From contig CAZIFD010000004.1 of NCBI GenBank assembly GCA_964538685.1, positions 1 through 62,270 of the forward strand: 62,270 nucleotides of DNA, written 5' to 3'. The position numbers and the translations under genes are program-made. Under the pieces are notes generated by a model that saw only the letters and a list, made by a program, of their open reading frames with translations, did no database searches and was not told where the DNA came from. Positions 1-57,961 of the stretch are shown here, one piece after another (the first letter of the stretch is position 1; the number at the start of each line of letters is the position of its first letter). Origin of the DNA: an uncultured Bdellovibrionales bacterium (GTDB taxonomy: Bacteria > Patescibacteriota > Minisyncoccia > Moranbacterales > UBA2206).

Positions 1-50
1 ATTTTTCAGAAATCTTTGGTAAAGTAAGTTCGAGCTTGGTTGTATAGATA

Positions 51-187
51 CACCACTACAAAACAAAACGGCTTTTTGAGAGCCAATTCGTGGGCGGCAC
101 GCAGTGCCGCCCATTGGTTTTTGTGCGGGGAATCCTTGCCGCTCGGCGCGCTGACGCGCGCCTCGCGGTTGGCCAAAACGAGGTTCG
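51..187 (-). repeat. Left arm of perfect 137 bp inverted repeat bracketing LSR-1 (partner 1777-1913)
   Basis: caccactaca...gaggttcg (51-187) is the exact reverse complement of 1777-1913; identity stops 1 nt into the tRNA-Lys acceptor stem. Confidence 0.97.
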
Positions 188-247
188 CTCTTGTGCGATT
201 TTGAAATTCTGTCTGGTATTTGCTTTGCCCATAAAAAGAATTTTTGC
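188..247. other. Leader tiled by four short segments complementary to the LSR-1 CDS
   Basis: 188-202 rc=1716-1730; 203-214 rc=1031-1042; 216-231 rc=761-776 (1 mismatch); 233-247 rc=392-406. Confidence 0.9.
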
Positions 248-371
248 TATACTGAAGTTGCGACCAACCGAAACGAGAAGCCTTTTCTAGTGGCCGTCTC
301 GGAATCAATCAAGGTTTCTCTTGGTTGGTCGCACCGGGGCGGCCATTTGAGTTTTAACTTTTTCAAAAAAT

Positions 372-1973
372 ATGGACAAAGCAATACAACCGCAAAAATT
401 CTTTTTGTACGCCCGCAAGTCCACAGATGTGGAAGATAAACAAGTGAGGTCTATTGAAGATCAAGTCGCAGAATTGCGCGCCTATGCCAAACAAGAGGGG
501 TTAAATATTGTTGAAGTTTTTATCGAAAAGCAATCGGCCAAAATTCCAGGCAGGCCAATTTTTAACGAGATGTTGGATAGAATAGAGAAAGGTGAGGCAA
601 ACGGAATTTTGGCTTGGCACGCAGACAGATTGGCGCGCAATTCTGTGGACGGCGGGCGTATTATTTATCTTTTAGATACCGGAAAACTTGCGGCCCTGAA
701 GTTTCCAACTTTATGGTTTGAAAACACACCGCAAGGAAAATTTATGCTGAACATTATCTTTGGACAAAGCAAATACTATGTTGATTCGCTTGCCGAAAAT
801 ACAAAAAGAGGTTTACGCCAAAAAGTGAAACGCGGTGAATATCCGGGAGTTGCGCCTATTGGCTACATAAACGATGTTCGTACCAAATCAATCATCTTGG
901 ACAAAAAGAAAGCTCCAATTATTCGCCGCGCTTTTGAACTTTATTCACAGGGTGATAAACGGCTCGAAGATATCGCCGACTTTTTGGCACAAAACGGAAT
1001 CTTATCTTCCGGCGGCAAGCGAATCAAACGAGACAGAATTTCTTTTATCCTTTCAAATCCTTTTTACATCGGGTTGTTTAGATATGCCGGTGAAATTTAC
1101 GAAGGCAAACATCAGCCAATAGTCTCAAAGAAAACTTTTGATAAGGTGCAGGAAGTTTTGAAGCAAAGAGGACGACCGCGCCACAAAACCAAAAATCAAC
1201 CACAGCCATTTTGCGGTCTTTTGCGTTGCGGAACTTGCGGCATGATGATAACCGGCGAATACAGAATAAAAAGGCAGAAAAACGGCAATGTCCACGAATA
1301 TGTTTATTACCACTGCACCAAAAAGCGAAAAGATTTCAAATGCCCCGAGCCCTGTATCCGCCAAGAAGAATTAGATCGTCAGTTATCCTCTCTGCTTCAA
1401 AAATTTTCTTTGCCACCGGATTGGGCGGCGGAGATGAGAAAGATGTTGGAGAAAGACAAAGTGGAAGCCGCCCAATCCGCAACCGCTTTTGTTCAAGAAA
1501 CGCGGGAGAAAATCCGCACTATTCAAACGAAGCTCCAGCGACTTCTTGATGGCTATCTTGAACAAGACATTGAACGTGAAGTATATCTCACTGAAAAAGC
1601 CAAACTCCTTTCCGAAAAGAAGTCGCTGGAGGAGCAATCTTTCAATCTTGAACAAAAGCGGACTGGCTGGCTCGAACCGATGGCAGAATGGATAAAAGAG
1701 GCAGAAAACCTGCCTAAAATCGCACAAGAGAGCAACCTTTTTGCGAAAAAGGTTGCTTGCCGAACTTTGTTCGGCTCGAACCTCGTTTTGGCCAACCGCG
1801 AGGCGCGCGTCAGCGCGCCGAGCGGCAAGGATTCCCCGCACAAAAACCAATGGGCGGCACTGCGTGCCGCCCACGAATTGGCTCTCAAAAAGCCGTTTTG
1901 TTTTGTAGTGGTGCGCCCACCAGGACTCGAACCTGGGACCGTTTGCTTAAAAGGCAACTGCTCTACCAACTGA
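372..1973 (+). CDS. Large serine recombinase (resolvase + recombinase + Zn-ribbon + coiled coil), LSR-1
   Basis: YARKS catalytic Ser motif, DRLARN, CGTCG...YYHC zinc ribbon; last 19 codons are antisense tRNA-Lys (RPPGLEPGT...). Confidence 0.95.
   Translation: MDKAIQPQKFFLYARKSTDVEDKQVRSIEDQVAELRAYAKQEGLNIVEVFIEKQSAKIPGRPIFNEMLDRIEKGEANGILAWHADRLARNSVDGGRIIYLLDTGKLAALKFPTLWFENTPQGKFMLNIIFGQSKYYVDSLAENTKRGLRQKVKRGEYPGVAPIGYINDVRTKSIILDKKKAPIIRRAFELYSQGDKRLEDIADFLAQNGILSSGGKRIKRDRISFILSNPFYIGLFRYAGEIYEGKHQPIVSKKTFDKVQEVLKQRGRPRHKTKNQPQPFCGLLRCGTCGMMITGEYRIKRQKNGNVHEYVYYHCTKKRKDFKCPEPCIRQEELDRQLSSLLQKFSLPPDWAAEMRKMLEKDKVEAAQSATAFVQETREKIRTIQTKLQRLLDGYLEQDIEREVYLTEKAKLLSEKKSLEEQSFNLEQKRTGWLEPMAEWIKEAENLPKIAQESNLFAKKVACRTLFGSNLVLANREARVSAPSGKDSPHKNQWAALRAAHELALKKPFCFVVVRPPGLEPGTVCLKGNCSTN
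1777..1913 (+). repeat. Right arm of 137 bp inverted repeat, inside 3' end of LSR-1, ending at attL-like tRNA junction
   Basis: Exact reverse complement of 51-187; contains hairpins ggcgcgc-gtca-gcgcgcc and gggcggcac-tgc-gtgccgccc. Confidence 0.97.
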
Positions 1974-1984
1974 GCTATAGGCGC
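1909..1984 (-). tRNA. tRNA-Lys(TTT), with encoded CCA
   Basis: rc = GCGCCTA TA GCTC AGTTGGTA GAGC A GTTGC CTTTTAA GCAAA CGGTC CCAGG TTCGAGT CCTGG TGGGCGC A CCA; 76 nt cloverleaf. Confidence 0.96.
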
Positions 1985-48879: not shown

Positions 48880-48918
48880 ACTAACAATTTCATTAAAAAA
48901 CCTGCCTGATAGAAAAGT

Positions 48919-49019
48919 GTCGCATTTACTGAACGAAGCTCGAACCTTTTTTGAGCAACAAATTCTGCCGTGAACGGCAGAAACCCGCCCAGCGTCTCCG
49001 CCCGCCGATACTCGGCGAG
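48919..49019 (+). repeat. attR-like junction plus L segment; diverged inverted copy at 60296-60387
   Basis: Shared ctgaacgaagctcgaac and tccgcccgccga-a/tactcggcgag. Confidence 0.85.
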
Positions 49020-49102
49020 CAAAGCAAAACAATTTTCTTTCAATTTTTTATCGCCCGCCCGCCAAATTTTTCTTAAAAGGAATTGAAAATTGTTTTGCTT
49101 TG
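49020..49102 (+). repeat. 83 bp unit U (18 bp terminal inverted arms), copy 1
   Basis: caaagcaaaacaattttc-47 nt-gaaaattgttttgctttg; copies at 54903-54985 (identical, minus) and 60213-60295 (3 substitutions, minus). Confidence 0.95.
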
Positions 49103-49246
49103 ACGTCTTGATACCAAGACGGCGGAAACGCTTCGCTACGCCAATTTTATTTTTCGGGCGGGGCGGAAAAAAAGGGGGGGTCTGGGGGGAATTCCGCCCC
49201 GCCCTCTCTTTTCCGCTTTCACTTTTTTCGCTGGCGCTGGAGGCCG
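49020..49246 (+). repeat. Left arm of perfect 227 bp inverted repeat bounding cassette 1 (partner 54759-54985)
   Basis: Exact reverse complement, including homopolymer lengths A7, G7, G6. Confidence 0.95.
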
Positions 49247-49270
49247 TGCCAACTTCATTGGCGCGCCACC

Positions 49271-50086
49271 TTATAATTTTTTTATTGTTTCCGATCCGTT
49301 GGTAGAAATTATTACTGGAGCGACGCCTTTTGTTCCAATAACATATGTTGCCACATTTACTATTTCTCCCTTTTTAGCAAATTGAGCCATTGCTCCGGTC
49401 GTCATCACTACTTTCGGAGGCATGGGGACTGCATAAGTATCAGCGACACCACCCTTTGAAGAATTGTAAACCGAAACCGATTGATATTTCTCAACGCTAG
49501 CTTTGGTCATTATATTGCCTGGCAATTCAGCACTTCCCTGCAGACAATCAGGATGTGTTTTGTTAATTTTTAATCCTAAAATCAGTGACGAAATAAAAAG
49601 GCGTTTTATCTCTTTACGATCTCTTGCTAAAGTTTCGGAATCTTTAACATCCCTTATTTTTTTATTTCCGTATTCGATATCCAACCTGCTCTCAATTAAA
49701 TTATCCTTATTCTTGTCAGGGTCAAACCCTAAATCAAAAATCGGAAATTTGTTTTGTTTGTATAATGCAACTTCCTTTTCATTAAGTAACGTTCTTGTTA
49801 TTAAACACGTTAAATCTCCTTTTTCCAAAAATTTGGATAAACTTCCTCTTGCTTCAACCTTTCTATTATCTTCCCCTTCAATTACAAATGTCTTTATCCT
49901 GTTTATCCAATTATTACCGTTAATTTTTGTTACTATTACTTGTTCCCATGGCAAAATATCGCTTTTTCTTAAAATGCCTTTTGGAATTACCAAGCCCTCG
50001 GCAATTTCGTCCTGTTTAAAAGTATTCCTGCAATTGGTGATAACAAGGTTGTGGATAGCGCTTCTTTTGAAAATTATTTCTTTCAT
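49271..50086 (-). CDS. Tandem double PanD-like (pyruvoyl decarboxylase fold) protein
   Basis: Domain 1 RSAIH...DILPWEQV...NRIKTFVI...GD; domain 2 QGSAELP...DTYAV...GAMAQ...GE, with the Gly-Ser cleavage motif only in domain 2. Confidence 0.75.
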   Translation of the reverse strand: MKEIIFKRSAIHNLVITNCRNTFKQDEIAEGLVIPKGILRKSDILPWEQVIVTKINGNNWINRIKTFVIEGEDNRKVEARGSLSKFLEKGDLTCLITRTLLNEKEVALYKQNKFPIFDLGFDPDKNKDNLIESRLDIEYGNKKIRDVKDSETLARDRKEIKRLFISSLILGLKINKTHPDCLQGSAELPGNIMTKASVEKYQSVSVYNSSKGGVADTYAVPMPPKVVMTTGAMAQFAKKGEIVNVATYVIGTKGVAPVIISTNGSETIKKL

Positions 50087-50186
50087 AAAATTCAGCATTA
50101 CCTTATCACATTGCGCAATATAAGTAATTTTTAAAAATTAAATCCTATGCAATTATAATACGTCTTTTTCTATAAAAAATCAATGA

Positions 50187-50676
50187 AAACCACTAGCTTA
50201 TACGCTAGTGGTTTCTATCCTGCCGTCTAACGACGGCTAGAACAACTTGAGGTTTTCCATATCTACCTGTCGGTTGCTTTGGTTTTGAATATACTTACGG
50301 ATGGCAAATTCATTGATGCCAATGGTAGAAACAAAGTAGCCCCGTGCCCAGAGACTGCCTTTGGGGAATTTTTTAGGCGGTATGACAAGATACAAGTGTA
50401 TATGCTCGTCGCCAATGTGCCATTCGAGAATTTTAATCCCCTTCCATTTGGCAATGAACTTGAATATTCTCTTAAGTTCTAGTTTAATGTAAGTATCTGC
50501 CATTACCTTGCCTCGGTATCTGGGAGTCCAAACTACATGATACTGACAACAGTAAGTGCAGTGCTCTAGTTTATAGAGTTTGGTCAACATAAAATCACCT
50601 CCTTGCTAGTGGGTGATTTTATTATATTCCAAGAGCTAACGCTCTAAACGCACACACCGGCTGACGCCGGTGGTTT
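50187..50676 (-). mobile_element. IS200/IS605-family element, transposase-only, internally deleted
   Basis: tnpA ORF flanked by hairpins aaaccactagc-ttatac-gctagtggttt (50187-50214) and accggc-tgac-gccggt (50656-50671); exact ends uncertain. Confidence 0.7.
50237..50590 (-). pseudogene. tnpA: IS200-type Y1 transposase TnpA with in-frame internal deletion
   Basis: YHVVWTPRYR, HUH motif EHIHL, LWARGYFVSTIG, KYIQNQ; segment normally between IPPK and FP is missing. Confidence 0.8.
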
Positions 50677-50691
50677 ATCTGGTTAAAAAAA

Positions 50692-50723
50692 AGGAGCGGC
50701 TCTCTTTTAAGATTACCGCTCCT
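50692..50723 (-). terminator. Hairpin after radical SAM genes
   Basis: aggagcgg-16 nt-ccgctcct followed on the minus strand by a T-run. Confidence 0.6.
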
Positions 50724-50727
50724 GAAT

Positions 50728-52260
50728 TTAGAGTCTGCGCGTTACAGACCTTCCCAAGCGCTCATTGATGGATTTCACCTTGCGGTGCATTTCATCAAGT
50801 AACGCATTCGGGTATGGCCATACCCCCGTCTTCCGAGAGAATAAACAATGCTCGAACGGCGCAGTCGGGTAGAGCTGCCGCCACGAACGCCGATATTCTC
50901 GCGTGACAGGAGAGAGGGTCAGAAAGATCGCTTGGTGCAAGAATTGCTGCTCAAGACACTCTGTGATGAATCGGAAAGTTTCTTCCAATTCGCACGGCCT
51001 TTCGGCAGGCTGTCCATTTGTTTCGGGAAAACCGCCTATGAAAAAGCCCTCACGATTGGTCGTTTGCAGATTCTCCTTGGCAAACTCGAGAACTTTCCGC
51101 ACCACAGACAAGGTATGCGGCTTTCTTATCATGCGAAGTACTCTGTCGTTTCCGTTCTCGCATGGAAACGCGATGTGCCGTACATTGCCGTTCTGACTGA
51201 ATTGCCGGAGCAACCGGAAGTTTTCCCTAGTCATTGACTCGAAAGTAAGGCCGTTGGAAAATCCGATCTGGTACCCCGCGCTGGCTACTTGAGAAAGAAT
51301 CTCAAAAGCCAAGTCGCGAGAGGAGTTGTTTCCGCCGCCGAAATTGTTGTCCATAAAGTCAATGTAGTTGATGCCGAAAAGGCAATCAAACTCATTGATG
51401 ATTTCCATGGTGTTCTCGACAGCGTACCTTACGAGCCGCTTATCTGTGTCGCAAAAACTGCAGTCAAAACCGCAACCGTACGACGTCAGAAGTGGCAGGT
51501 AGGCAACAGGCCCCTGAATGCCAAGGATGGTACCGATTCGTCCGGCGTGAGGATTACCGACAAAGGAGTAAAGATCCAATGCTTTTTCCCTCCCAACAAC
51601 TTCCACTCGCGGAAGCAAGTTGTAGTCGGGAATTGCGAAATGATCGGGTTGAAACTCGGACAGACCGGAAAATTCAACACGACCATTGAATCTGCGAGCC
51701 ACTCCTTGCGGCAAGTTACCCATAGCTGGTTCGTCAAAACAGCGTAGTAGAGAAGTTATCACCGGCTGACCCGGGCCAACAACGACATAGTCAATTGCCG
51801 GAATTTCTCCGATAGGAAACGGAGTATTGCCGAGGATTTCTTCGTACCACTGCGAAGCTTCATGTCCGCCCAGAATAATGGGCGTTGCAGGAAATGCTTC
51901 CTTCAGGGCCTTAGTTGTTTTTGCCACTTCGCCTCGATCAACTACCGTGCAACAGCTCATGCCGATCACATCCGGCTCACGCTTGACCACTTCGTCTACG
52001 ATCTCCTCGATCCGCAGTCCAGTTTTCCAGTAAGGAATCCCGTCAAGTTCCTCAATCGCTACCGGATTATAGGAAGAATCAAGGATACCTTTTTTTAAAC
52101 CCTCGGCCGCCGCGTCAAAGAGAAATGCTTCGTAGCCATTTCTTTTGGCTTCCGCCAAAACAGAAATGGCTCCCAATGGCGGGTGAATGCGGGGCGGAGT
52201 TCCAGCTGGAGAGACTGCGCGAGGTGTTACAATGACAAACCTCTCTATCTTTCGTTTCAT
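50728..52260 (-). CDS. B12-binding-domain radical SAM enzyme
   Basis: PPLG, PDVIGMSC, IILGGHEAS, CGFDCSFC, DNNF, CENG, FFIGGFP. Confidence 0.9.
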   Translation of the reverse strand: MKRKIERFVIVTPRAVSPAGTPPRIHPPLGAISVLAEAKRNGYEAFLFDAAAEGLKKGILDSSYNPVAIEELDGIPYWKTGLRIEEIVDEVVKREPDVIGMSCCTVVDRGEVAKTTKALKEAFPATPIILGGHEASQWYEEILGNTPFPIGEIPAIDYVVVGPGQPVITSLLRCFDEPAMGNLPQGVARRFNGRVEFSGLSEFQPDHFAIPDYNLLPRVEVVGREKALDLYSFVGNPHAGRIGTILGIQGPVAYLPLLTSYGCGFDCSFCDTDKRLVRYAVENTMEIINEFDCLFGINYIDFMDNNFGGGNNSSRDLAFEILSQVASAGYQIGFSNGLTFESMTRENFRLLRQFSQNGNVRHIAFPCENGNDRVLRMIRKPHTLSVVRKVLEFAKENLQTTNREGFFIGGFPETNGQPAERPCELEETFRFITECLEQQFLHQAIFLTLSPVTREYRRSWRQLYPTAPFEHCLFSRKTGVWPYPNALLDEMHRKVKSINERLGRSVTRRL

Positions 52261-52312
52261 GATTTTACCTCCTTTTCAGAAAAAGAGGCGGCAAGAAATG
52301 AATCCCGCCGCC

Positions 52313-53566
52313 TCAGGTGGTTGAACTACCGCTTTTCCGCATTGTCTCATAGAGGCAGTTGGGATCCTGCTGATCGTAGTTGCCCCAGAAGTAGAAGCGA
52401 TTAGCTGGACATTCGTTTTTACAGAGACGATTGCAGCTATCGCATTCGCGGGGTTGACGAATCGCCCGAACGGTTTGGAATTTATTCCCGACTTTTCCTT
52501 GCCAAAAATCTCTGATGGTTCCATCTTGGTAGATTTTCCCAAAAGAGAAGGTTGGCCCGAAGAAAACGCAGGGACTTATCTTGCCGTTGGCGTCAATGTG
52601 CATGGAACGGTTAGCCGCTCCGCACATTCGTCCGCGCAAGAGTTTCTGCAACACCCCAGCTGGCTGGCTGAACATCATGCCTTCGTCCATCAGCACATAC
52701 GGTAGCACTTTTGGGCTATTAAGGTATTCCAGTACCTTGAGATAACGCGGGGAGTCTTGAGGGCTTAGCATTGTTTGATTATGCACAGCCCTGCCGGCCG
52801 GCCTGCAGTAGGAGAATTTGATTTTTACTCCTCTGCTTCTAGCCAGTTCTACTAACTCCGGCACATTATCCAAGTTTTGTGGTAACAGCGTAGTCCGCAA
52901 AAGTACATTGACGCCGCCTTCCTTGAGTGTTTCAAGAGCGGCGAGTGCTTTCCGGAAATGACCAGAACCACGCAAGCTGTCATTGACCGCTTCCATGCCC
53001 TCAATACTTACCGAGGTGCGAATTTTGGCATTAGCAAGCAAGTCAACTGTTTGCGGGGTTACTACTGCACTGTTCGTGCTGATTGTGAGAAAACATCCGG
53101 CTGAACGGAGCAGGTTAATGATGATTTCAAAATCAGGATGAAGAAAAGGATCGCCACCGCCGATTTTGACGTACATAACACCCAGCTTCTGAATTTCCGC
53201 CGCAAGTTTCTTAATTGTCGCCACGGGCAAAGATGTTTTTAGGCCTCGTCCCGCTTCCGACAAACAGAAAGGACATTGGAGCGAACACGCCAGCGTGATG
53301 TCGAGGTAAATCTTGAACGGAGCCGAATAGGCGTTTAGGACTGGCGAATTGTGAACAATCCGAACTGCCTTGTCACTTAATTTCTGCCCGACAAACTGTC
53401 CGATAAGATCGGGCTGTGCCGAATCGAAGGGAATCCACTGCGGAGATTGCAAAGTATGAACTTTCAACACTCCGCTATTGGAATCAAACTCCACCAGTTT
53501 ATCGACTTCCTCCTCTCGTAAAGAGGAAAAGCCGAAGCTGGTGTTTTCCAGCCTTATGATCTTCAT
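52313..53566 (-). CDS. Radical SAM enzyme with SPASM domain
   Basis: CSLQCPFC, GGDPF, STN, CGAA...ISPC, CDSC-x3-C-x3-C. Confidence 0.92.
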   Translation of the reverse strand: MKIIRLENTSFGFSSLREEEVDKLVEFDSNSGVLKVHTLQSPQWIPFDSAQPDLIGQFVGQKLSDKAVRIVHNSPVLNAYSAPFKIYLDITLACSLQCPFCLSEAGRGLKTSLPVATIKKLAAEIQKLGVMYVKIGGGDPFLHPDFEIIINLLRSAGCFLTISTNSAVVTPQTVDLLANAKIRTSVSIEGMEAVNDSLRGSGHFRKALAALETLKEGGVNVLLRTTLLPQNLDNVPELVELARSRGVKIKFSYCRPAGRAVHNQTMLSPQDSPRYLKVLEYLNSPKVLPYVLMDEGMMFSQPAGVLQKLLRGRMCGAANRSMHIDANGKISPCVFFGPTFSFGKIYQDGTIRDFWQGKVGNKFQTVRAIRQPRECDSCNRLCKNECPANRFYFWGNYDQQDPNCLYETMRKSGSSTT

Positions 53567-53581
53567 GGCTTTTCCTCCTTT

Positions 53582-54232
53582 TCAGTCGAGAATTCGGGAA
53601 GTCAGTATGTCTGCTTTCAGGCAACGGGCGGCGGCGATGGCCGTACCAATCGGCTTGAGAATTCCGTCATCGGGCAGATCAATCCTTGATGTGATTTTTC
53701 CGCCTGCTTTTTGGAATTCTTTGACTGACATTGGCTTTTCCGCTATCTGCAAAAGCAATTCTGCTTCCAGCTCAATGAGAGCAGGGTCGTCGATCGGCCT
53801 AATCTCGCCAGAGGTAAATCTTCCAGCATAGATCAGGACATTAGTGAACGGTTTGCGGCCGGCTTCGGCGCGCGGACTGCGAAAGATAATGATAGGCAGA
53901 GGCTCATTCGTCAGATCGGTAGCAAGATATATTTTTTCAATGGACTCCGAGTCCATCAAAATTGTCTCATCGCCGTGATGATCCGCGATGTCCACGTCTG
54001 ACCCAACTTCCTCAATCGCTTCCCGATGCAACGAAGCACCTGGCAATTCGTTCGGTTCCAGTTTTCCACCAATCCCGCCAAAAGGCAGGATTGAAATACC
54101 CTCTTCGGTCTTACCCCAACGGTGGGGTTGCTTTAAAGTAAAGCAGAAACCGAAGCCGCGGGTTGCTAGCAAACCAGTCCCCAGATCCGCTTCGGGATCC
54201 TGAAGAAACTGTTCCAGTTTATGCTCATTCAT
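53582..54232 (-). CDS. NUDIX hydrolase
   Basis: Perfect Nudix box GKLEPNELPGASLHREAIEEVG; start reassigned to MNEHK with AGAGGA RBS. Confidence 0.9.
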   Translation of the reverse strand: MNEHKLEQFLQDPEADLGTGLLATRGFGFCFTLKQPHRWGKTEEGISILPFGGIGGKLEPNELPGASLHREAIEEVGSDVDIADHHGDETILMDSESIEKIYLATDLTNEPLPIIIFRSPRAEAGRKPFTNVLIYAGRFTSGEIRPIDDPALIELEAELLLQIAEKPMSVKEFQKAGGKITSRIDLPDDGILKPIGTAIAAARCLKADILTSRILD

Positions 54233-54365
54233 TTCTGTATCCTCTTTAGGTTTTTGGTTGTCAATGTGCTCACCAGAACGCTCTAGCTTGACGTTGTATT
54301 TTATAGCAAAAAGGCGTATTTTGTCAAGGATATTGTGTATTTTAGAGATAAATGGATTCATAAGC

Positions 54366-54575
54366 TTATTTGAGCAAAATATCAACAGAAACACCTAATG
54401 CTTTGGCAATTCTTTGAACAGTATCAATAGTCGGGCTTTGTATTCCGCCCGATTCAATTTTAATAATTGTGGCATGAGCCACATCTGCCAATCTTGCAAG
54501 TTTGTCTTGCGATAAACCTTTTTCCTTGCGGTATTTCTTTATGTTTTTTGCAATAGTTGGAATTATTTTTGACAT
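54366..54575 (-). CDS. XRE-family HTH regulator (cassette 1)
   Basis: NIKKYRKEKGLSQDKLA...IIKIESG...PTIDTVQRIAKALGV. Confidence 0.93.
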   Translation of the reverse strand: MSKIIPTIAKNIKKYRKEKGLSQDKLARLADVAHATIIKIESGGIQSPTIDTVQRIAKALGVSVDILLK

Positions 54576-54588
54576 TGTGATATGTTAA

Positions 54589-54610
54589 TATCTATACTAT
54601 AATATAGATA
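54589..54610. promoter_or_regulatory. Palindromic operator candidate upstream of XRE-1
   Basis: tatctata-ctataa-tatagata; half-site atatctata repeated near 54624-54632. Confidence 0.5.
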
Positions 54611-54758
54611 GTAATTTATCTTTCAGTAAATATCTATATTATTATGATACACAATTTTTATTTATTAGTAAATGGGAGTTCTTTGTCGTTGCCCGCGCAC
54701 GGGTGGGTTGGAGCAAGGGCAACATCCTTTTCGGCGGCGCATTTCGCTTTGCGAAATG

Positions 54759-54985
54759 CGGCCTCCAGCGCCAGCGAAAAAAGTGAAAGCGGAAAAGAGA
54801 GGGCGGGGCGGAATTCCCCCCAGACCCCCCCTTTTTTTCCGCCCCGCCCGAAAAATAAAATTGGCGTAGCGAAGCGTTTCCGCCGTCTTGGTATCAAGAC
54901 GTCAAAGCAAAACAATTTTCAATTCCTTTTAAGAAAAATTTGGCGGGCGGGCGATAAAAAATTGAAAGAAAATTGTTTTGCTTTG
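54759..54985 (-). repeat. Right arm of 227 bp inverted repeat of cassette 1 (includes U copy 2 at 54903-54985)
   Basis: Reverse complement of 49020-49246. Confidence 0.95.
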
Positions 54986-55118
54986 ATGTTTGGCTTAACG
55001 CCAAACGGCGGAAACGCTTCGCTTCGGCTCGGGCGTGGCGGAATTCCTCCCCCCAACCCCCTCCTTCCGCCACGCCCTCGCTCGGACTGCTCTTTTTTTC
55101 GGCGGAATTGGAGGCCGT
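54968..55118 (+). repeat. Left arm of perfect 151 bp inverted repeat bounding cassette 2 (partner 60080-60230)
   Basis: Exact reverse complement; diverged homolog of the cassette-1 arm. Confidence 0.95.
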
Positions 55119-55141
55119 GCCAATTTCATTGGCGCGCCGCC

Positions 55142-57961
55142 TCATTTCTGAATTAAATACTCCTCAAGTTTCTCAAGAATATTATCAACAGTCAATTGGT
55201 CTTTTGGCGAACAACCGACAATATGATCAATGTATTTATCTTTTTTCAATTCAGTCAAAATGTTCGCACTCTGATTTCCTTTGCCGGAATGGTGATAAAT
55301 TTGACCTGTGATAATTACATTGTATTTTGTTTGCCCTTTTTTCAATCCACCCAAGACATCGCTATTCCTGATTTTGGAATTGCCAAAAAACGCAACATCC
55401 CAATCAGTCGCTTTCAATCCGTATTTTGCGAAAAAACCTCTCAATTTTTCTCTGATTAAATCCTCGCCAACAACTTCGCCCAAAATACAAATATTGAACG
55501 GAGACGGAATTTTGATATTTTCGGCTTCTTCTTTCGCGCCAGCTTTCGGTTGAAATGCCAGAGCTTCTTTCAAACCGCCGATTGTCGCTTGCGCGTTTTG
55601 CAAATCAAGTTTCAAAATTTCATTTTCAAGTTTTTTGTCGTCGAGATTTTTAATAGCCTTTGTCAGCTCGCCCTCGTATAATTCAAGCAATTCCTGATCT
55701 TCTTTTGACTTTTCCGCCTGTTTTTCGGAAACAATTTTACGACTTTGGGTATATCTAACTAAATTTTCTTCAAATTGAGGTTTGAAACTTGCTAAATCTT
55801 GATTTTTTAGAGCGACAAAAAACTTGTAGTAATCAGACGGCGAAATAATGTAAAAATAAAAATTTTCTTTGCCTTTGTATTCTTTTTGATATTTTTTCCC
55901 TGCGTTTAATTTGAGCAAGTTTTCATTTTTGAAGTCTCGGTCATCTTTAATTTCAACAACAAGGGTGTCTTTTTTCGTTTTTATTACAAAATCAGGATAA
56001 AAAGCGTAATAACTGCCGTGGCTATTGCCGTTTTTCTTGTAGGCAATTCCAAAATACTTGCTTTCTGAAACGCCATTTTTAAACCACCACAAAACATCGT
56101 TGTCGGTCTTTTCCAGTTCATCAATAAATACTTTTTCGGGCTTGGACCATTGCTGTTTTCCGTTTTTATCTCGTTTTACAAAGTAAGGTTTCAAAACCGA
56201 TTTTTTGATAGTTTTGATTTCATCAAAATTTTCAAAAACGCTTATTATATCCGGCACTTGCCAATTTTCATTGGGGATAACTTCGTCTGCTTTTTCAGGC
56301 AACGATTTATATTTACCTTTTGCTGTTTCAATAAGTTCTATAAATTCACCTTTATTGACTGGATTCAAAACAATCGTTGCGATTTCGTCCTCGTTATCAA
56401 TTCCAAACGCTTTTTTGAAAAACGAACGCAAGCTTGATTTGATAATTTCAGTCGGGCGACCACCGCCAGTAAACGGAAAAGTTAGAGATTTTATAAATGC
56501 CGTGTATTCGGCGCAAACTTCCTCGCGGTCTCTTACAATTGCGCCTTTCTTTTGAAAATCAACGGCTTGCTTTTTATCAATTTCGGAAATTTGCCCCTCA
56601 AAACCAATATCTTTTTTGAAAACTATTTTGCCGATGTTGATTTTCTTTTCTTTGAATTTCAATTCATCGCCAGCTTGAAACAAACAATCCTTAAATTCAC
56701 CCGACAATCTAAATAATTCTCTTTTTCTTCTGATATGTTCGCTTGGCAGATAAATATCTTTATAAATCGTATTGTCGCGCACCATTTGATCTTTGCTGAC
56801 ATAATCCTTTGCTAAATCTTCAACAATTTCAAAATTATCAGAAGCCGTATAAACATAGCCGATATTCAAAGCGGGATAATTTTCGTAATGCTTTTGCTCT
56901 GGCATACGCATAATACGGCCAAGCGTTTGGATATTGAAAACATAATTTTCGGCGTTCCATTCCCGTTGAAGCAGTAAAATGCTGGCGCGTGGGCAATCCC
57001 AACCTTGTGCAATAGCTTCTTTGAATACTAAAACATCAACTCCGCTATCGTGATTTTCAAGGTAATCAAGATTTTTCTTTTTATCTTTTTCGGCAAGCCA
57101 AAGAGCAAGTTTTCCATTTTCAATCGTTATGCCGTCTTTGTTCAAAATTTCAATGATTTTGTCTTCCGGCTCTCTAATATCCGATTTCTTTTTCTTTGGT
57201 ATTTGGATTAAAAGCAAAGGATTTATATCGGTCTTGGCTTCTTCGTAAAGCCGTTTTAATTCCTTTCGTTTTTTCAACGCTTCACGAACAATGTCCTCGT
57301 TTGTCTGCACTCGGCCAAGTCCAGGATTTATCTGTATCCCTTCCTTAATCATTCCCTCGGCCACAACTTCGCTTAATTTGACGGTTATTTTGTGGTCATT
57401 GGTTACGCCCTCTTTTGGCGTGGCCGAAACTTCAATCGTCGATTTTGGGCTAATCATGTTGACGATTTCTTGCGACTTGCTTGTTTTTGCCGTTCTGTGG
57501 CTTTCGTCAATTATCAAAACAATGTTTCTGCCCTCGTCTCTCGTATTTTCGGCAACTTTGCTTAAATTCCAATCCTTTTCATTGTCGGACATAAAAAGCG
57601 AAATACCCTCTTTATTCAAAGAATCCCAGTTCACAAAAACAATCTGGTTTTGCTCAATTATATTGTTTTGAATTTCGTTAATTCCAATGCAATCAAGCAG
57701 TCGCTCATTTTCAAAATGCTTTTCCAGTTTTTCTTTTCTTTGTTCGTTTAGTGCGTTTACTGAAATCCAAACAAAAGCTAATTCCTTTTGACCGCCAAGC
57801 TCTTTTACTATTCGCGACATTGCTTCGGCAAGCATAATTGTTTTACCTGCGCCAGTTGGAGCTTGAAAAACAATCAATTTTGGGTCTTCATCTTCAATAT
57901 ACCCAACGGAAGTTGAGACAAGTTCTTTGATGTATTTTTTTTGATATGCTAAATCTTTCAT
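55142..57961 (-). CDS. Type III restriction enzyme Res subunit with C-terminal extension
   Basis: QAPTGAGKT, IIDESH, SATP, EAIAQGWD, QTLGRIMR, PD...VEIK nuclease; 4 nt overlap with mod. Confidence 0.9.
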   Translation of the reverse strand: MKDLAYQKKYIKELVSTSVGYIEDEDPKLIVFQAPTGAGKTIMLAEAMSRIVKELGGQKELAFVWISVNALNEQRKEKLEKHFENERLLDCIGINEIQNNIIEQNQIVFVNWDSLNKEGISLFMSDNEKDWNLSKVAENTRDEGRNIVLIIDESHRTAKTSKSQEIVNMISPKSTIEVSATPKEGVTNDHKITVKLSEVVAEGMIKEGIQINPGLGRVQTNEDIVREALKKRKELKRLYEEAKTDINPLLLIQIPKKKKSDIREPEDKIIEILNKDGITIENGKLALWLAEKDKKKNLDYLENHDSGVDVLVFKEAIAQGWDCPRASILLLQREWNAENYVFNIQTLGRIMRMPEQKHYENYPALNIGYVYTASDNFEIVEDLAKDYVSKDQMVRDNTIYKDIYLPSEHIRRKRELFRLSGEFKDCLFQAGDELKFKEKKINIGKIVFKKDIGFEGQISEIDKKQAVDFQKKGAIVRDREEVCAEYTAFIKSLTFPFTGGGRPTEIIKSSLRSFFKKAFGIDNEDEIATIVLNPVNKGEFIELIETAKGKYKSLPEKADEVIPNENWQVPDIISVFENFDEIKTIKKSVLKPYFVKRDKNGKQQWSKPEKVFIDELEKTDNDVLWWFKNGVSESKYFGIAYKKNGNSHGSYYAFYPDFVIKTKKDTLVVEIKDDRDFKNENLLKLNAGKKYQKEYKGKENFYFYIISPSDYYKFFVALKNQDLASFKPQFEENLVRYTQSRKIVSEKQAEKSKEDQELLELYEGELTKAIKNLDDKKLENEILKLDLQNAQATIGGLKEALAFQPKAGAKEEAENIKIPSPFNICILGEVVGEDLIREKLRGFFAKYGLKATDWDVAFFGNSKIRNSDVLGGLKKGQTKYNVIITGQIYHHSGKGNQSANILTELKKDKYIDHIVGCSPKDQLTVDNILEKLEEYLIQK

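What the first reader, a model, noticed from the sequence alone, without database searches (positions are those of the whole stretch)
188..247. LSR-1 leader is a 60 nt mosaic of colinear antisense pieces of its own gene
Seen: directly inside the 137 bp arm, four almost contiguous blocks are reverse complements of CDS 1716-1730 (15 nt), 1031-1042 (12 nt), 761-776 (16 nt, 1 mismatch) and 392-406 (15 nt), in exactly nested order. They tile 58 of 60 positions. Inference: they act as clamps that zip the single strand into a rod with large loops. An alternative is a relic inverted gene copy reduced by deletions. In RNA, the clamp on codons 7-12 could also repress translation.
Basis: partly seen in the sequence, partly recalled or inferred. 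Interest (0 to 1): 0.9.

Follow-up and report, generated by a model that had tools for sequence, protein, structure and literature searches.

The report
Recombinase gene zipped by antisense clamps
The 60 bases upstream of this serine-recombinase gene really are a patchwork of antisense copies of four pieces of the gene. They belong to a conserved, gene-wide network of perfect base-pairing 'clamps' shared by about a hundred related tRNA-linked elements, which suggests these elements spend part of their life as folded single-stranded DNA.

Summary
Confirmed, and larger than reported. The four antisense blocks at 188-247 are real: 54 of 60 nt lie in antisense words of 11 nt or more, against a shuffle mean of 0.8 and maximum of 14. 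They continue the perfect 137-nt inverted repeat (51-187 / 1777-1913) that brackets a large serine recombinase (LSR) gene abutting tRNA-Lys. All 13 perfect inverted repeats of at least 11 nt in the unit are nested, six of at least 12 nt lying within the coding sequence. A second LSR (45% identical, 60384-62221) and 104 units from other assemblies share the architecture. The pairing is maintained in evolution: 42 pairs change on both sides, and synonymous variation is suppressed inside the clamps. It does not behave like mRNA structure. The blocks lie upstream of a conserved promoter, with block 3 holding the -35 box and block 4 the spacer. G:T and A:C mismatches are equally common, whereas a genuine 5'UTR hairpin shows 12:1. 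Some cargo cassettes carry clamps too. Best reading: intrastrand DNA pairing that folds the element into a branched hairpin during a single-stranded stage. The role of that stage is inferred. The relic-copy and translation-repression readings are not supported. I found no description in the literature.

The parts
1..50 (+). Conserved left flank: a mimic of a tRNA 3' end (GTTCGAGC at 28-35, then 15 nt up to the CACCA at 51-55), inverted relative to tRNA-Lys
   Evidence: Nearly the same 45 nt precede the left arm in most related loci, whichever tRNA lies on the other side. The GCTCGAAC motif occurs 6 times in the window against 0.84 expected.
51..187 (.). Left arm of the perfect 137-nt inverted repeat. 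It carries an intrinsic terminator (90-114 plus a T-run) facing inward.
188..202 (.). Leader block 1, pairs with 1716-1730 (15/15)
   Evidence: Six of its pairs change on both sides in relatives.
203..217 (.). Leader block 2, pairs with 1028-1042 (14/15; perfect over 203-214 / 1031-1042)
   Evidence: Present in 21 of 36 aligned units and absent where the CDS partner differs.
216..231 (.). Leader block 3, pairs with 761-776 (15/16). Contains the predicted -35 box TTGCCC at 225-230.
   Evidence: Nearly invariant on both sides in 36 units.
233..247 (.). Leader block 4, pairs with 392-406 (15/15, codons 7-12). It is the 17-nt promoter spacer, with an extended -10 TG.
248..253 (+). Predicted -10 box TATACT. 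A249, T250 and T253 are invariant in 36 units.
258..345 (+). Structured 5'UTR: co-varying, G:U-tolerant hairpins (259-269 / 323-333 and inner stems), ending in a terminator-like stem at 326-345
   Evidence: No Rfam match.
372..1973 (+). Large serine recombinase ORF (Resolvase, Recombinase and Zn_ribbon_recom domains). It runs through the right arm, and its stop codon lies inside the antisense of tRNA-Lys.
392..406 (.). CDS partner of block 4
469..645 (.). Intragenic clamp 469-482 / 632-645 (14 nt) enclosing clamp 537-547 / 603-613 (11 nt)
761..776 (.). CDS partner of block 3 (codes FGQSKY)
781..1027 (.). Intragenic clamp 781-795 / 1013-1027 (15 nt). It closes the segment skipped between blocks 3 and 2, forming a three-way junction.
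1028..1042 (.). CDS partner of block 2
1043..1697 (.). Large branch closed by 1043-1054 / 1686-1697. It holds clamps 1417-1429 / 1467-1479 (13 nt), 1483-1498 / 1646-1661 (16 nt) and 1533-1547 / 1617-1631 (15 nt).
1716..1730 (.). CDS partner of block 1
1731..1776 (.). The 46 nt skipped between block 1 and the arm. They form two local hairpins: 1731-1742 / 1746-1757 (12 bp) and 1758-1764 / 1768-1774 (7 bp).
   Evidence: for the first hairpin. The second was read from the sequence.
1777..1913 (.). Right arm. It encodes the last 46 codons before the tRNA and carries the tRNA's terminator on the minus strand (1874-1850).
1909..1984 (-). tRNA-Lys(UUU). Its last 5 nt (CACCA) are the outer end of the arm.
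60384..62221 (+). Second unit of the same architecture (LSR-2, 45% identical). It has 158-nt perfect arms. Leader blocks 60575-60588, 60609-60623, 60624-60637 and 60654-60667 pair with 62049-62062, 62004-62018, 61114-61127 and 61064-61077. It also has seven intragenic clamps of at least 12 nt, and it abuts a tRNA 3' end at the window edge.

Best explanation
The 60-nt mosaic is the continuous strand of a segmented long-range duplex. Together with the 137-nt arm it gives about 200 nt that pair without interruption with the far arm and then with four short linkers of the recombinase gene. The gene segments between the linkers bulge out as side branches, each closed at its base by its own perfect 11-16-bp clamp. 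This architecture is shown to be a conserved, selected property of a whole family of tRNA-adjacent LSR units. My inference is that the pairing takes place in DNA, not in the mRNA. When the element is single-stranded, either strand would collapse into a compact branched hairpin. That stage could be an incoming strand after DNA uptake, a replication intermediate, or the lagging-strand template. The fold would bring the two ends together and make the arm, promoter and leader region double-stranded. Its likely benefits are protection of the strand from nucleases and from SSB or RecA, and restoration of a duplex regulatory, priming or recombination region. These benefits are speculative. Replication template switching within the fold probably supplies the perfect, sharp-edged, wobble-free repeats, and selection keeps them. 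Status of each step: the pairing, its conservation and its constraint are shown; DNA rather than RNA is inferred from three indirect tests; the biological role of the fold is a hypothesis.
For: One nested fold:
- All 13 perfect inverted repeats of at least 11 nt in the unit are nested.
- In 104 units, only 23 of 5457 repeat pairs cross.
- Units carry a mean of 10.1 perfect inverted repeats of at least 12 nt, against 1.4 in flanking controls and 0-2 per equal window elsewhere in this genome.
- Predicted ssDNA folding energy gives z = -9.1 for LSR-1 and -23 for LSR-2, against -1.6 to +0.3 for controls. The minimum-energy fold contains nearly all clamps, with 65-74% of bases paired against 50-57% in controls.

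Conservation:
- 91.3% of cells are paired, against 39-49% when partners are slid.
- 42 pairs (283 cells) change on both sides, and 0 of 500 shuffles reach that.
- Block 1 exists as CTCTTGTGCGATTTT, ATCCCTTGCGGTTTT, ATCCAATGCAATTTT and ATCACTTGCGATTTT, matched on both sides each time.
- Synonymous codon entropy is 0.43 bits inside clamps and 1.06 outside (p = 4e-13).
- A mosaic leader is family-wide: a median of 40 of the first 70 nt after the arm are antisense words of the unit's own CDS, in 100 units.

DNA rather than mRNA:
- A conserved promoter puts the blocks upstream of the transcription start.
- Terminators in both arms stop outside transcription from entering.
- Mismatches in clamps are G:T 186 against A:C 198, and 32 against 41 in the leader blocks. 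The 5'UTR hairpin of the same units shows 12 against 1.
- Nested clamps also occur in unrelated cargo genes of sister cassettes.
Against: - There is no direct evidence that a single-stranded form exists.
- No replication, relaxase or packaging gene lies in the unit.
- Serine recombinases are known to act only on duplex DNA. I could not construct a productive route from a folded single strand to integration.
- The promoter and transcription start are predictions.
- Blocks 3 and 4 never vary, so they give no covariation evidence. Their conservation could be due to promoter function and to conserved peptides (FGQSKY, KFFLY).
- Mismatch counts are not phylogenetically independent.
- Some relatives near 50% identity have no clamps (L051, L061), and several cargo cassettes have none.
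- No strand asymmetry was found that would identify one functional strand.
Confidence: 0.45

Rival explanations
1. RNA-level fold-back inhibition. Transcripts that enter from outside would contain the left arm and the leader. These would pair with the far arm, with codons 7-12 and with other CDS segments, so read-through RNA would be silent or cut by RNase III. The gene's own, shorter mRNA would be translatable. This is the logic by which IS10 and IS50 protect themselves from external promoters (Davis, Simons & Kleckner 1985, from my own knowledge).
For: The leader lies upstream of the predicted transcription start, so only foreign transcripts would carry it. The terminators in the arms show that insulation from outside transcription matters here. 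Block 4 pairs with codons 7-12 and is invariant. In this window, 220-233 can alternatively pair with the start-codon region 371-384 (13/14).
Against: The clamps, including the leader blocks, show no G:U tolerance (32 G:T against 41 A:C). The bona fide RNA hairpin in the same units shows 12 against 1. Three of the four blocks pair 400-1350 nt from the ribosome-binding site, where they cannot affect initiation. The left-arm terminator would stop most read-through before the leader is made. Intragenic clamps and clamps in cargo genes are left unexplained.
Confidence: 0.17
2. A non-adaptive by-product. The long terminal inverted repeat makes the region fold on the lagging-strand template. Repeated intrastrand template switching then creates and homogenises short perfect inverted repeats, which have no function of their own.
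For: The repeats are perfect Watson-Crick, sharp-edged, strand-symmetric and without wobble bias. Multi-nucleotide differences are matched on both sides. Template switching is documented to create and maintain perfect stems and to homogenise repeat arms (PMC8794818, PMC5453318, PMC8604942). Clamps also appear in cargo genes that share only the location.
Against: Clamp positions are conserved across 36 units that are 70-80% identical. Synonymous sites inside them are strongly constrained between lineages, and homogenisation of two arms within a lineage does not predict that. Cassettes with equally long arms can have no clamps (L045, L119, window 49247-54758). Units whose arms have decayed keep their clamps (L016, L040, L133). 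Reading the sequence, I saw no microhomology at the block junctions.
Confidence: 0.2
3. A relic of an inverted copy of the gene, reduced by four deletions.
For: The colinear order of the blocks and their contiguity with the 137-nt arm are what a deleted inverted copy would look like.
Against: The blocks co-evolve with their partners over long divergence. The leader contains a conserved promoter. The same logic with different sequences occurs in a 45%-identical paralog and in about 100 units. Intragenic clamps cannot be relics.
Confidence: 0.02
4. An assembly or amplification artefact, such as a fold-back chimera.
For: The feature lies at the very start of the window. Inverted repeats do break assemblies, and two related contigs are obvious palindromic misassemblies (L086, L093).
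Against: The architecture recurs, with intact reading frames and divergent sequences, in about 100 assemblies from many projects. Several are deep inside contigs of 100-800 kb.
Confidence: 0.01

Closest known systems
Integron attC sites and the folded attP(+) of CTX phage (recombination sites that exist only as folded single-stranded DNA)
   Same: Function rests on intrastrand pairing of inverted repeats in single-stranded mobile DNA. The structure is conserved more than the sequence. Cassettes sit in arrays next to the recombinase gene.
   Different: Those sites are local hairpins of 60-140 nt with essential extrahelical bases, are strand-specific, and are used by tyrosine recombinases through single-strand exchange. 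Here the enzyme is a serine recombinase. The pairing spans a whole 1.9-kb gene, is perfect and is strand-symmetric. No recombination on the fold is shown.
Single-strand origins and single-strand promoters (ssoA/ssoU of rolling-circle plasmids, ssi signals, Frpo of plasmid F; from my own knowledge)
   Same: Folded ssDNA rebuilds a duplex promoter that RNA polymerase uses for priming or early expression. Here the -35 box and the spacer of the LSR promoter lie inside two predicted helices, and the -10 box is left unpaired.
   Different: Those are compact local hairpins in non-coding DNA and work in one strand only. Here the complementary strands are coding segments 150-550 nt away. No priming is shown.
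Recombinase genes bracketed by inverted repeats: Hin/Gin invertible segments and the yeast 2-micron plasmid FLP/IR system
   Same: A site-specific recombinase gene sits between two identical inverted repeats that plausibly contain its sites.
   Different: In 25 loci scanned, the tRNA always follows the right arm, so no second orientation is seen. The arms are 100-190 nt, contain the 3' end of the gene and a terminator, and are supplemented by internal clamps that those systems lack.
Fold-back inhibition and antisense control of IS10/IS50 transposase
   Same: Sequences near the element's end are complementary to the start of the transposase message. They silence transcripts that start outside the element.
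   Different: That is a single short RNA helix at the ribosome-binding site. Here there are four blocks, mostly far from the site, no wobble tolerance, and many clamps with no relation to initiation.
Hairpins created and maintained by replication template switching (PMC8794818, PMC5453318, PMC8604942)
   Same: Perfect stems with sharp ends, and multi-base compensated differences between lineages.
   Different: Described for local stems of tens of nt. Here the partners lie up to 1.5 kb apart, form one nested gene-wide design, and are under between-lineage constraint.
tRNA-integrating genomic islands with a large serine recombinase (relatives: SPbeta SprA/YokA, A118 integrase, CcrB, XisF)
   Same: The domain architecture is the same, the gene abuts the 3' end of a tRNA gene, and cargo cassettes (restriction-modification, radical SAM) lie beyond it.
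   Different: All matches are far below the family cut-offs, for example 123 bits against a cut-off of 900 for CcrB. Known islands have short direct repeats at their ends, not 137-nt inverted arms plus an internal inverted copy of the junction.

Membership tests
Large serine recombinase | N-terminal resolvase catalytic domain, followed by a recombinase domain and a zinc-ribbon domain | tested here: met
   Pfam PF00239 (88.5 bits), PF07508 (66 bits) and PF13408 (39 bits) in that order, for both LSR-1 and LSR-2. Solved relatives are SprA/YokA and A118 integrase.
Large serine recombinase | Recombination between short duplex att sites with a 2-bp crossover | not testable with these tools
   The sites are only inferred, from the tRNA-3'-end-like motifs GGTTCGAGC...CACCA at the unit borders.
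tRNA-integrated genomic island | Integrase gene next to the 3' end of a tRNA gene | tested here: met
   tRNA-Lys at 1909-1984(-) shares CACCA with the arm. The same arrangement, with nine other tRNA types, holds in 22 of 25 related loci.
tRNA-integrated genomic island | A displaced copy of the tRNA 3' end in direct orientation at the far end of the island | tested here: inconclusive
   For the LSR-2 island, a tRNA-3'-end-like sequence in direct orientation lies at 48919-48950. For LSR-1 the far end is outside the window. The copy next to the unit (1-55) is inverted, not direct.
Invertible DNA segment (Hin/Gin type, 2-micron type) | Both orientations of the segment occur | tested here: not met
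   All 22 loci with a detectable tRNA have it after the right arm. No minus-strand matches of interior segments appear among 46 homologous units. A minor subpopulation cannot be excluded without reads.
Integron cassette / attC | Tyrosine recombinase IntI and a local imperfect palindrome with extrahelical bases | tested here: not met
   The recombinase is of the serine type. The repeats are perfect and long-range.
IS200/IS605-type single-strand transposon | HUH Y1 transposase and subterminal hairpins | tested here: not met
   There is no HUH gene in the unit. A Y1_Tnp gene lies elsewhere, in the cargo of the LSR-2 island (50237-50590).
Cis-acting mRNA leader structure that represses translation | Leader and target are on the same transcript | tested here: not met
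   The predicted promoter (-35 at 225-230, -10 at 248-253) has invariant key bases in 36 units and puts the start near 260, downstream of all four blocks. This is a prediction only.
Cis-acting mRNA leader structure that represses translation | Helices tolerate G:U pairs on the transcribed strand | tested here: not met
   Leader blocks show 32 G:T against 41 A:C. The 5'UTR hairpin control shows 12 against 1.
Single-strand origin / single-strand promoter (sso, ssi, Frpo) | Folded ssDNA forms a duplex -35/-10 region that is used by RNA polymerase | tested here: inconclusive
   The -35 box and spacer are inside predicted helices 216-231 / 761-776 and 233-247 / 392-406 of the ssDNA fold, and the -10 box is unpaired. 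Use by polymerase is not testable here.
Known RNA families (Rfam 15) | A match to a curated covariance model | tested here: not met
   Only the tRNA passes. Two sub-threshold chance hits were seen.

The most novel reading that the evidence does not exclude
These tRNA-linked serine-recombinase islands of Patescibacteria and neighbouring phyla may be the first serine-recombinase mobile elements adapted to a single-stranded DNA life stage. The most plausible route is spread by natural DNA uptake, which delivers either strand at random. Each cassette would fold through its arms and clamps into a compact hairpin. That would shield it, bring its flanks together and rebuild a duplex promoter and site region. 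The recombinases are 70-85% identical across very distant candidate phyla, which would fit such promiscuous transfer. A still more exotic variant: in the folded mRNA, the unpaired linkers plus the arm form a discontinuous antisense sequence of about 200 nt against the element's own promoter and left arm DNA. That sequence could act as an RNA guide or an autorepressor.
Probability: 0.25. Interest if true: 0.9.

Novelty: categorically new. Interest (0 to 1): 0.8.

Why it matters
A protein-coding gene whose whole sequence, plus a purpose-built leader, is constrained to form one nested set of perfect, wobble-free helices is something I know only from viroid-like or single-stranded viral genomes. 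I have not seen it for a chromosomal recombinase gene.

If the fold acts in single-stranded DNA, it would reveal an unknown stage in the life of a very abundant element. More than 7,800 relatives were scored at E <= 1e-20. These organisms have barely characterised mobile elements and are thought to depend on DNA uptake. It would also extend the principle of 'folded single-strand substrates' from tyrosine and HUH enzymes to elements carrying serine recombinases.

Practical points:
- The arms explain why these loci break metagenome assemblies.
- The family offers many natural LSRs that target the conserved 3' ends of tRNA genes.
- The clamps are a strong test case for separating mutational origin (template switching) from selective maintenance of nucleic-acid structure inside coding sequence.

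Tried and rejected
- Rfam search of 1-2100 at E <= 1 found only the tRNA.
- Six literature searches found no description of this architecture. The last one supplied only the template-switch papers.
- Viral contigs gave one distant relative at 41% identity, so the element is not typically viral.
- Looking for flipped orientation found none in 25 loci, and no inverted interior segments among homologs.
- I tested strand asymmetry of hairpin loops, since GNA triloops are unusually stable in DNA. The result was 17 GNA against 12 TNC, which is not informative.
- I tested whether helices extend through G:T wobbles. Continuations were 10 G:T against 17 A:C, so they do not.
- I looked by eye for microhomology at the four block junctions, as serial template jumps would predict. 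None was seen.
- I tried to build a mechanism in which the arm duplex of a folded single strand serves as a serine-recombinase site. Double-strand exchange with a chromosome would leave a hairpin-capped broken chromosome, so I rejected it by reasoning.
- The direct repeat 373-384 = 761-772, which gives block 3 an alternative partner at the start codon, is not conserved in relatives. I treated it as specific to this window.

Full report
OBSERVATION. The four matches are exactly as described:
- 188-202 is the reverse complement of 1716-1730 (15/15).
- 203-214 is the reverse complement of 1031-1042 (12/12; 14/15 if extended to 203-217 / 1028-1042).
- 216-231 is the reverse complement of 761-776 (15/16).
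- 233-247 is the reverse complement of 392-406 (15/15).

The blocks are colinear, nested and cover 58 of 60 positions. They begin at the first base after the perfect 137-nt inverted repeat 51-187 / 1777-1913. Words of at least 11 nt antisense to the coding sequence (CDS) cover 54 of the 60 nt. Shuffled leaders give a mean of 0.8 (max 14, n = 2000). Unrelated stretches of the same window give a mean of 1.5 (max 22). Sense-strand matches give 0.

CONTEXT. The gene at 372-1973 is a large serine recombinase (LSR) with Resolvase, Recombinase and zinc-ribbon domains. It is only distantly related to SprA/YokA, A118 integrase, CcrB and XisF. Its last 46 codons before the tRNA are the right arm. The arm ends on the CACCA 3' terminus of tRNA-Lys (1909-1984, minus strand), and the reading frame only stops inside the antisense of the tRNA. 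Each arm carries an intrinsic terminator that faces into the unit: 90-114 plus a T-run on the plus strand, and 1874-1850 on the minus strand. The right-arm copy is the tRNA's own terminator. Together the two copies shield the interior from outside transcription. The 50 nt to the left of the unit mimic a tRNA 3' end (GTTCGAGC, 15 nt, CACCA) in inverted orientation. They are conserved in related loci whatever the neighbouring tRNA, so they travel with the element.

THE MOSAIC IS PART OF A GENE-WIDE DESIGN.
- All 13 perfect inverted repeats of at least 11 nt in 51-1913 are mutually nested.
- Six of at least 12 nt lie entirely in the CDS: 469-482 / 632-645, 781-795 / 1013-1027, 1417-1429 / 1467-1479, 1483-1498 / 1646-1661, 1533-1547 / 1617-1631 and 1731-1742 / 1746-1757. 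Synonymous or dinucleotide shuffles of the CDS give 0.13.
- The rest of the window has 0-2 such repeats per equal length.

The gene segments that the leader 'skips' are themselves closed domains. Segment 777-1030 is closed by 781-795 / 1013-1027, which makes a clean three-way junction with blocks 2 and 3. Segment 1043-1715 is closed by 1043-1054 / 1686-1697. Segment 1731-1776 is two small hairpins.

The left arm plus the leader is therefore one uninterrupted strand of about 200 nt that is paired throughout, facing a partner strand interrupted by four branches. Folded as ssDNA, the interior has an energy 9 SD below shuffles, and the minimum-energy structure contains nearly all clamps. Controls give z = -1.6 to +0.3. 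In the LSR units 65-74% of bases are paired, against 50-57% in controls.

GENERALITY. The second recombinase of the window (60695-62269, 45% identical) has 158-nt perfect arms and abuts another tRNA 3' end. It has four leader blocks with different sequences and seven intragenic clamps of at least 12 nt, with z = -23. The gaps between its leader blocks are filled by local hairpins.

Among 160 related loci from genomes and metagenomes, 104 have detectable arms, often of exactly 137-139 nt. Their interiors hold on average 10.1 perfect repeats of at least 12 nt, against 1.4 in flanks, and only 23 of 5457 repeat pairs cross. In 100 LSR units, a median of 40 of the first 70 nt after the arm are antisense words of the unit's own CDS. 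The mean is 0.6 nt for sense words and 16.8 nt for antisense words of another unit's CDS. Of 25 loci scanned, 22 have a tRNA of ten types directly after the right arm. Some relatives near 50% identity lack both arms and clamps, and units with decayed arms keep their clamps.

EVOLUTIONARY MAINTENANCE. On an alignment of 36 units that are 70-82% identical, the 177 pairs I specified are formed in 91.3% of cells, against 39-49% when partners are slid. Both sides change in 42 pairs (283 cells, against 35-66 when slid), and no shuffle out of 500 reaches this. Block 1 carries six such pairs, with four distinct 15-mers matched on both sides. Block 2 exists in 21 of the 36 units and is missing where the CDS partner differs. 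Blocks 3 and 4 never vary, so they are uninformative on this test. At codons whose amino acid is conserved, codon entropy is 0.43 bits inside clamps and 1.06 outside (p = 4e-13). This is nucleotide-level constraint. A decaying relic of an inverted gene copy is therefore excluded.

WHICH MOLECULE? Four observations argue against the gene's own mRNA.
1. A sigma-70-type promoter lies in the mosaic: TTGCCC (225-230), a 17-nt spacer with an extended -10 TG, then TATACT (248-253). Block 3 holds the -35 box and block 4 is the spacer. The critical -10 bases are invariant in 36 units, and variants with a roughly 23-nt insertion keep a correctly spaced -35. Transcription should therefore start near 260, downstream of all four blocks.
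2. The arm terminators should stop transcripts that enter from outside.
3. Mismatches in the clamps are G:T 186 against A:C 198, and 32 against 41 in the leader blocks. Helices do not continue through wobbles (10 against 17). The genuine 5'UTR hairpin of the same units (259-269 / 323-333) shows 12 G:T against 1 A:C. The pairing is thus Watson-Crick only and strand-symmetric, as expected for DNA or for a copying process, and not for a sense RNA.
4. Nested perfect clamps also occur in unrelated cargo genes of neighbouring cassettes: L004 709-2135 has seven (4.9 per kb), L120 has five, and window 55119-60079 has five. Other cassettes have none. The property therefore belongs to the mobile DNA, not to regulation of one gene.

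MECHANISM. The pairing, its nesting, its conservation and its constraint are shown. I infer that the pairs form within single-stranded DNA of either strand. They would collapse the unit into a branched hairpin whose stem is the arm plus leader. This would juxtapose the element's ends and make the arm, promoter and leader region duplex. The purpose is a hypothesis: protection of an incoming or replicating single strand, priming or early expression from a rebuilt promoter, or easier passage of a large heterology during uptake-driven recombination. Replication template switching is a documented source of perfect stems and of one-step compensated changes (PMC8794818, PMC5453318, PMC8604942). It probably supplies the repeats, and selection retains them.

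The weaknesses are clear. No single-stranded form has been observed, and the unit has no replication or transfer gene. Serine recombinases use duplex sites. I also could not derive a productive integration route from a folded strand, because exchange with a chromosome would leave a hairpin-capped break.

RIVALS.
- RNA fold-back inhibition of read-through transcripts, as in IS10/IS50, fits the position of the leader and block 4. It fails the wobble test and explains neither distant blocks nor intragenic and cargo clamps.
- A purely mutational by-product of template switching fits the perfect, symmetric repeats. It does not fit conserved positions, synonymous constraint, clamp-free cassettes with long arms, or clamp-rich units with decayed arms.
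- An artefact is excluded by about 100 independent assemblies.

WIDER ARCHITECTURE (inferred). Three tRNA-3'-end-like sites alternate in orientation: far end, cargo, inverted internal junction, LSR unit, tRNA. This is seen at window 48917-62221 and in L004 560-4015. The internal junction is an inverted copy of the attP that excision would create. The recombinase segment and the cargo segment are therefore each bracketed by inverted repeats, formally like the 2-micron plasmid. However, I saw no second orientation.

COMPARISON AND NOVELTY. The nearest ideas all share one aspect and fail a defining feature:
- folded ssDNA sites (attC, CTX attP);
- single-strand origins and promoters;
- IS608-type hairpin ends;
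- inverted-repeat-bracketed recombinase genes;
- IS10 fold-back inhibition;
- template-switch hairpins.

The full comparison is in the membership table. The library searches found no description. I therefore rate the architecture as new in kind, with its function unresolved.

Noticed in passing
window 258-345: The 5'UTR of LSR-1 is a conserved structured RNA candidate. It has co-varying, G:U-tolerant stems (259-269 / 323-333 and inner stems; GGCCGTCTCGG...CCGGGGCGGCC) ending in a terminator-like hairpin at 326-345 followed by TTTGAGTTTT. RNA fold z = -3.7 and there is no Rfam match. It may be an unnamed attenuator or autoregulatory site.
   Followed up: partly
window 90-114 (+) and 1874-1850 (-): Each arm of the inverted repeat contains an intrinsic terminator facing into the unit. 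The right-arm copy is the terminator of tRNA-Lys and lies inside the recombinase reading frame (peptide NQWAALRAAH). The stem co-varies in relatives.
   Followed up: partly
window 1914-1973 and 62222-62269: Both recombinase reading frames run through the arm without a stop and end only inside the antisense of the adjacent tRNA gene. The protein tail would therefore depend on which tRNA the unit sits next to.
   Followed up: no
window 48917-62221: A 13-kb island sits upstream of LSR-2. A module of about 330 nt occurs four times in alternating orientation: 48919-49274, 54674-54985, 54968-55145 and 59996-60387. This gives perfect inverted repeats of 227 nt and 151 nt around two cargo segments. 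One segment holds an aspartate-decarboxylase-like gene, two radical SAM genes (B12-binding and SPASM) and a NUDIX gene. The other holds a type III restriction subunit and a DNA methylase. The far end (48919-48950) mimics a tRNA 3' end in direct orientation with the tRNA at the window edge.
   Followed up: partly
window 50237-50590 (-): An IS200-like Y1 (HUH) transposase gene, an enzyme that works on single-stranded hairpin DNA, lies in the cargo of the LSR-2 island (Pfam PF01797, 73.6 bits). This is a single instance, and no link to the clamps was established.
   Followed up: no
L004 709-2135; L120 798-2288; window 55119-60079: Cargo cassettes with unrelated genes also carry mostly nested perfect inverted repeats of 12-20 nt at 3-15 times the background density. 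Other cassettes (L045, L119, window 49247-54758) carry none.
   Followed up: partly
L086 1-4651; L093 1-2983: These contigs are giant palindromes (1550-nt and 698-nt 'arms') around a unit interior. The assembler most likely followed the same flank out of both copies of the inverted repeat. Many related contigs also end inside the left arm.
   Followed up: partly
window 188-1776 and 60542-62063, against the rest of the window: The recombinase units have about 43-44% G+C, against 36-40% in housekeeping regions of the window. This is consistent with foreign origin.
   Followed up: no
window 373-384 and 761-772; 220-233: TGGACAAAGCAA occurs at the start codon and again at the partner of block 3. 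Block 3 could therefore alternatively pair with the start-codon region (13/14). The repeat is not conserved in relatives.
   Followed up: partly
related loci L001-L160: The recombinase is 70-87% identical across contigs assigned to many different candidate phyla, including Saccharibacteria, Paceibacterota, Magasanikbacteria, Uhrbacteria, Moranbacteria and Blackburnbacteria. More than 7,800 relatives score E <= 1e-20. This points to recent and wide horizontal spread.
   Followed up: no
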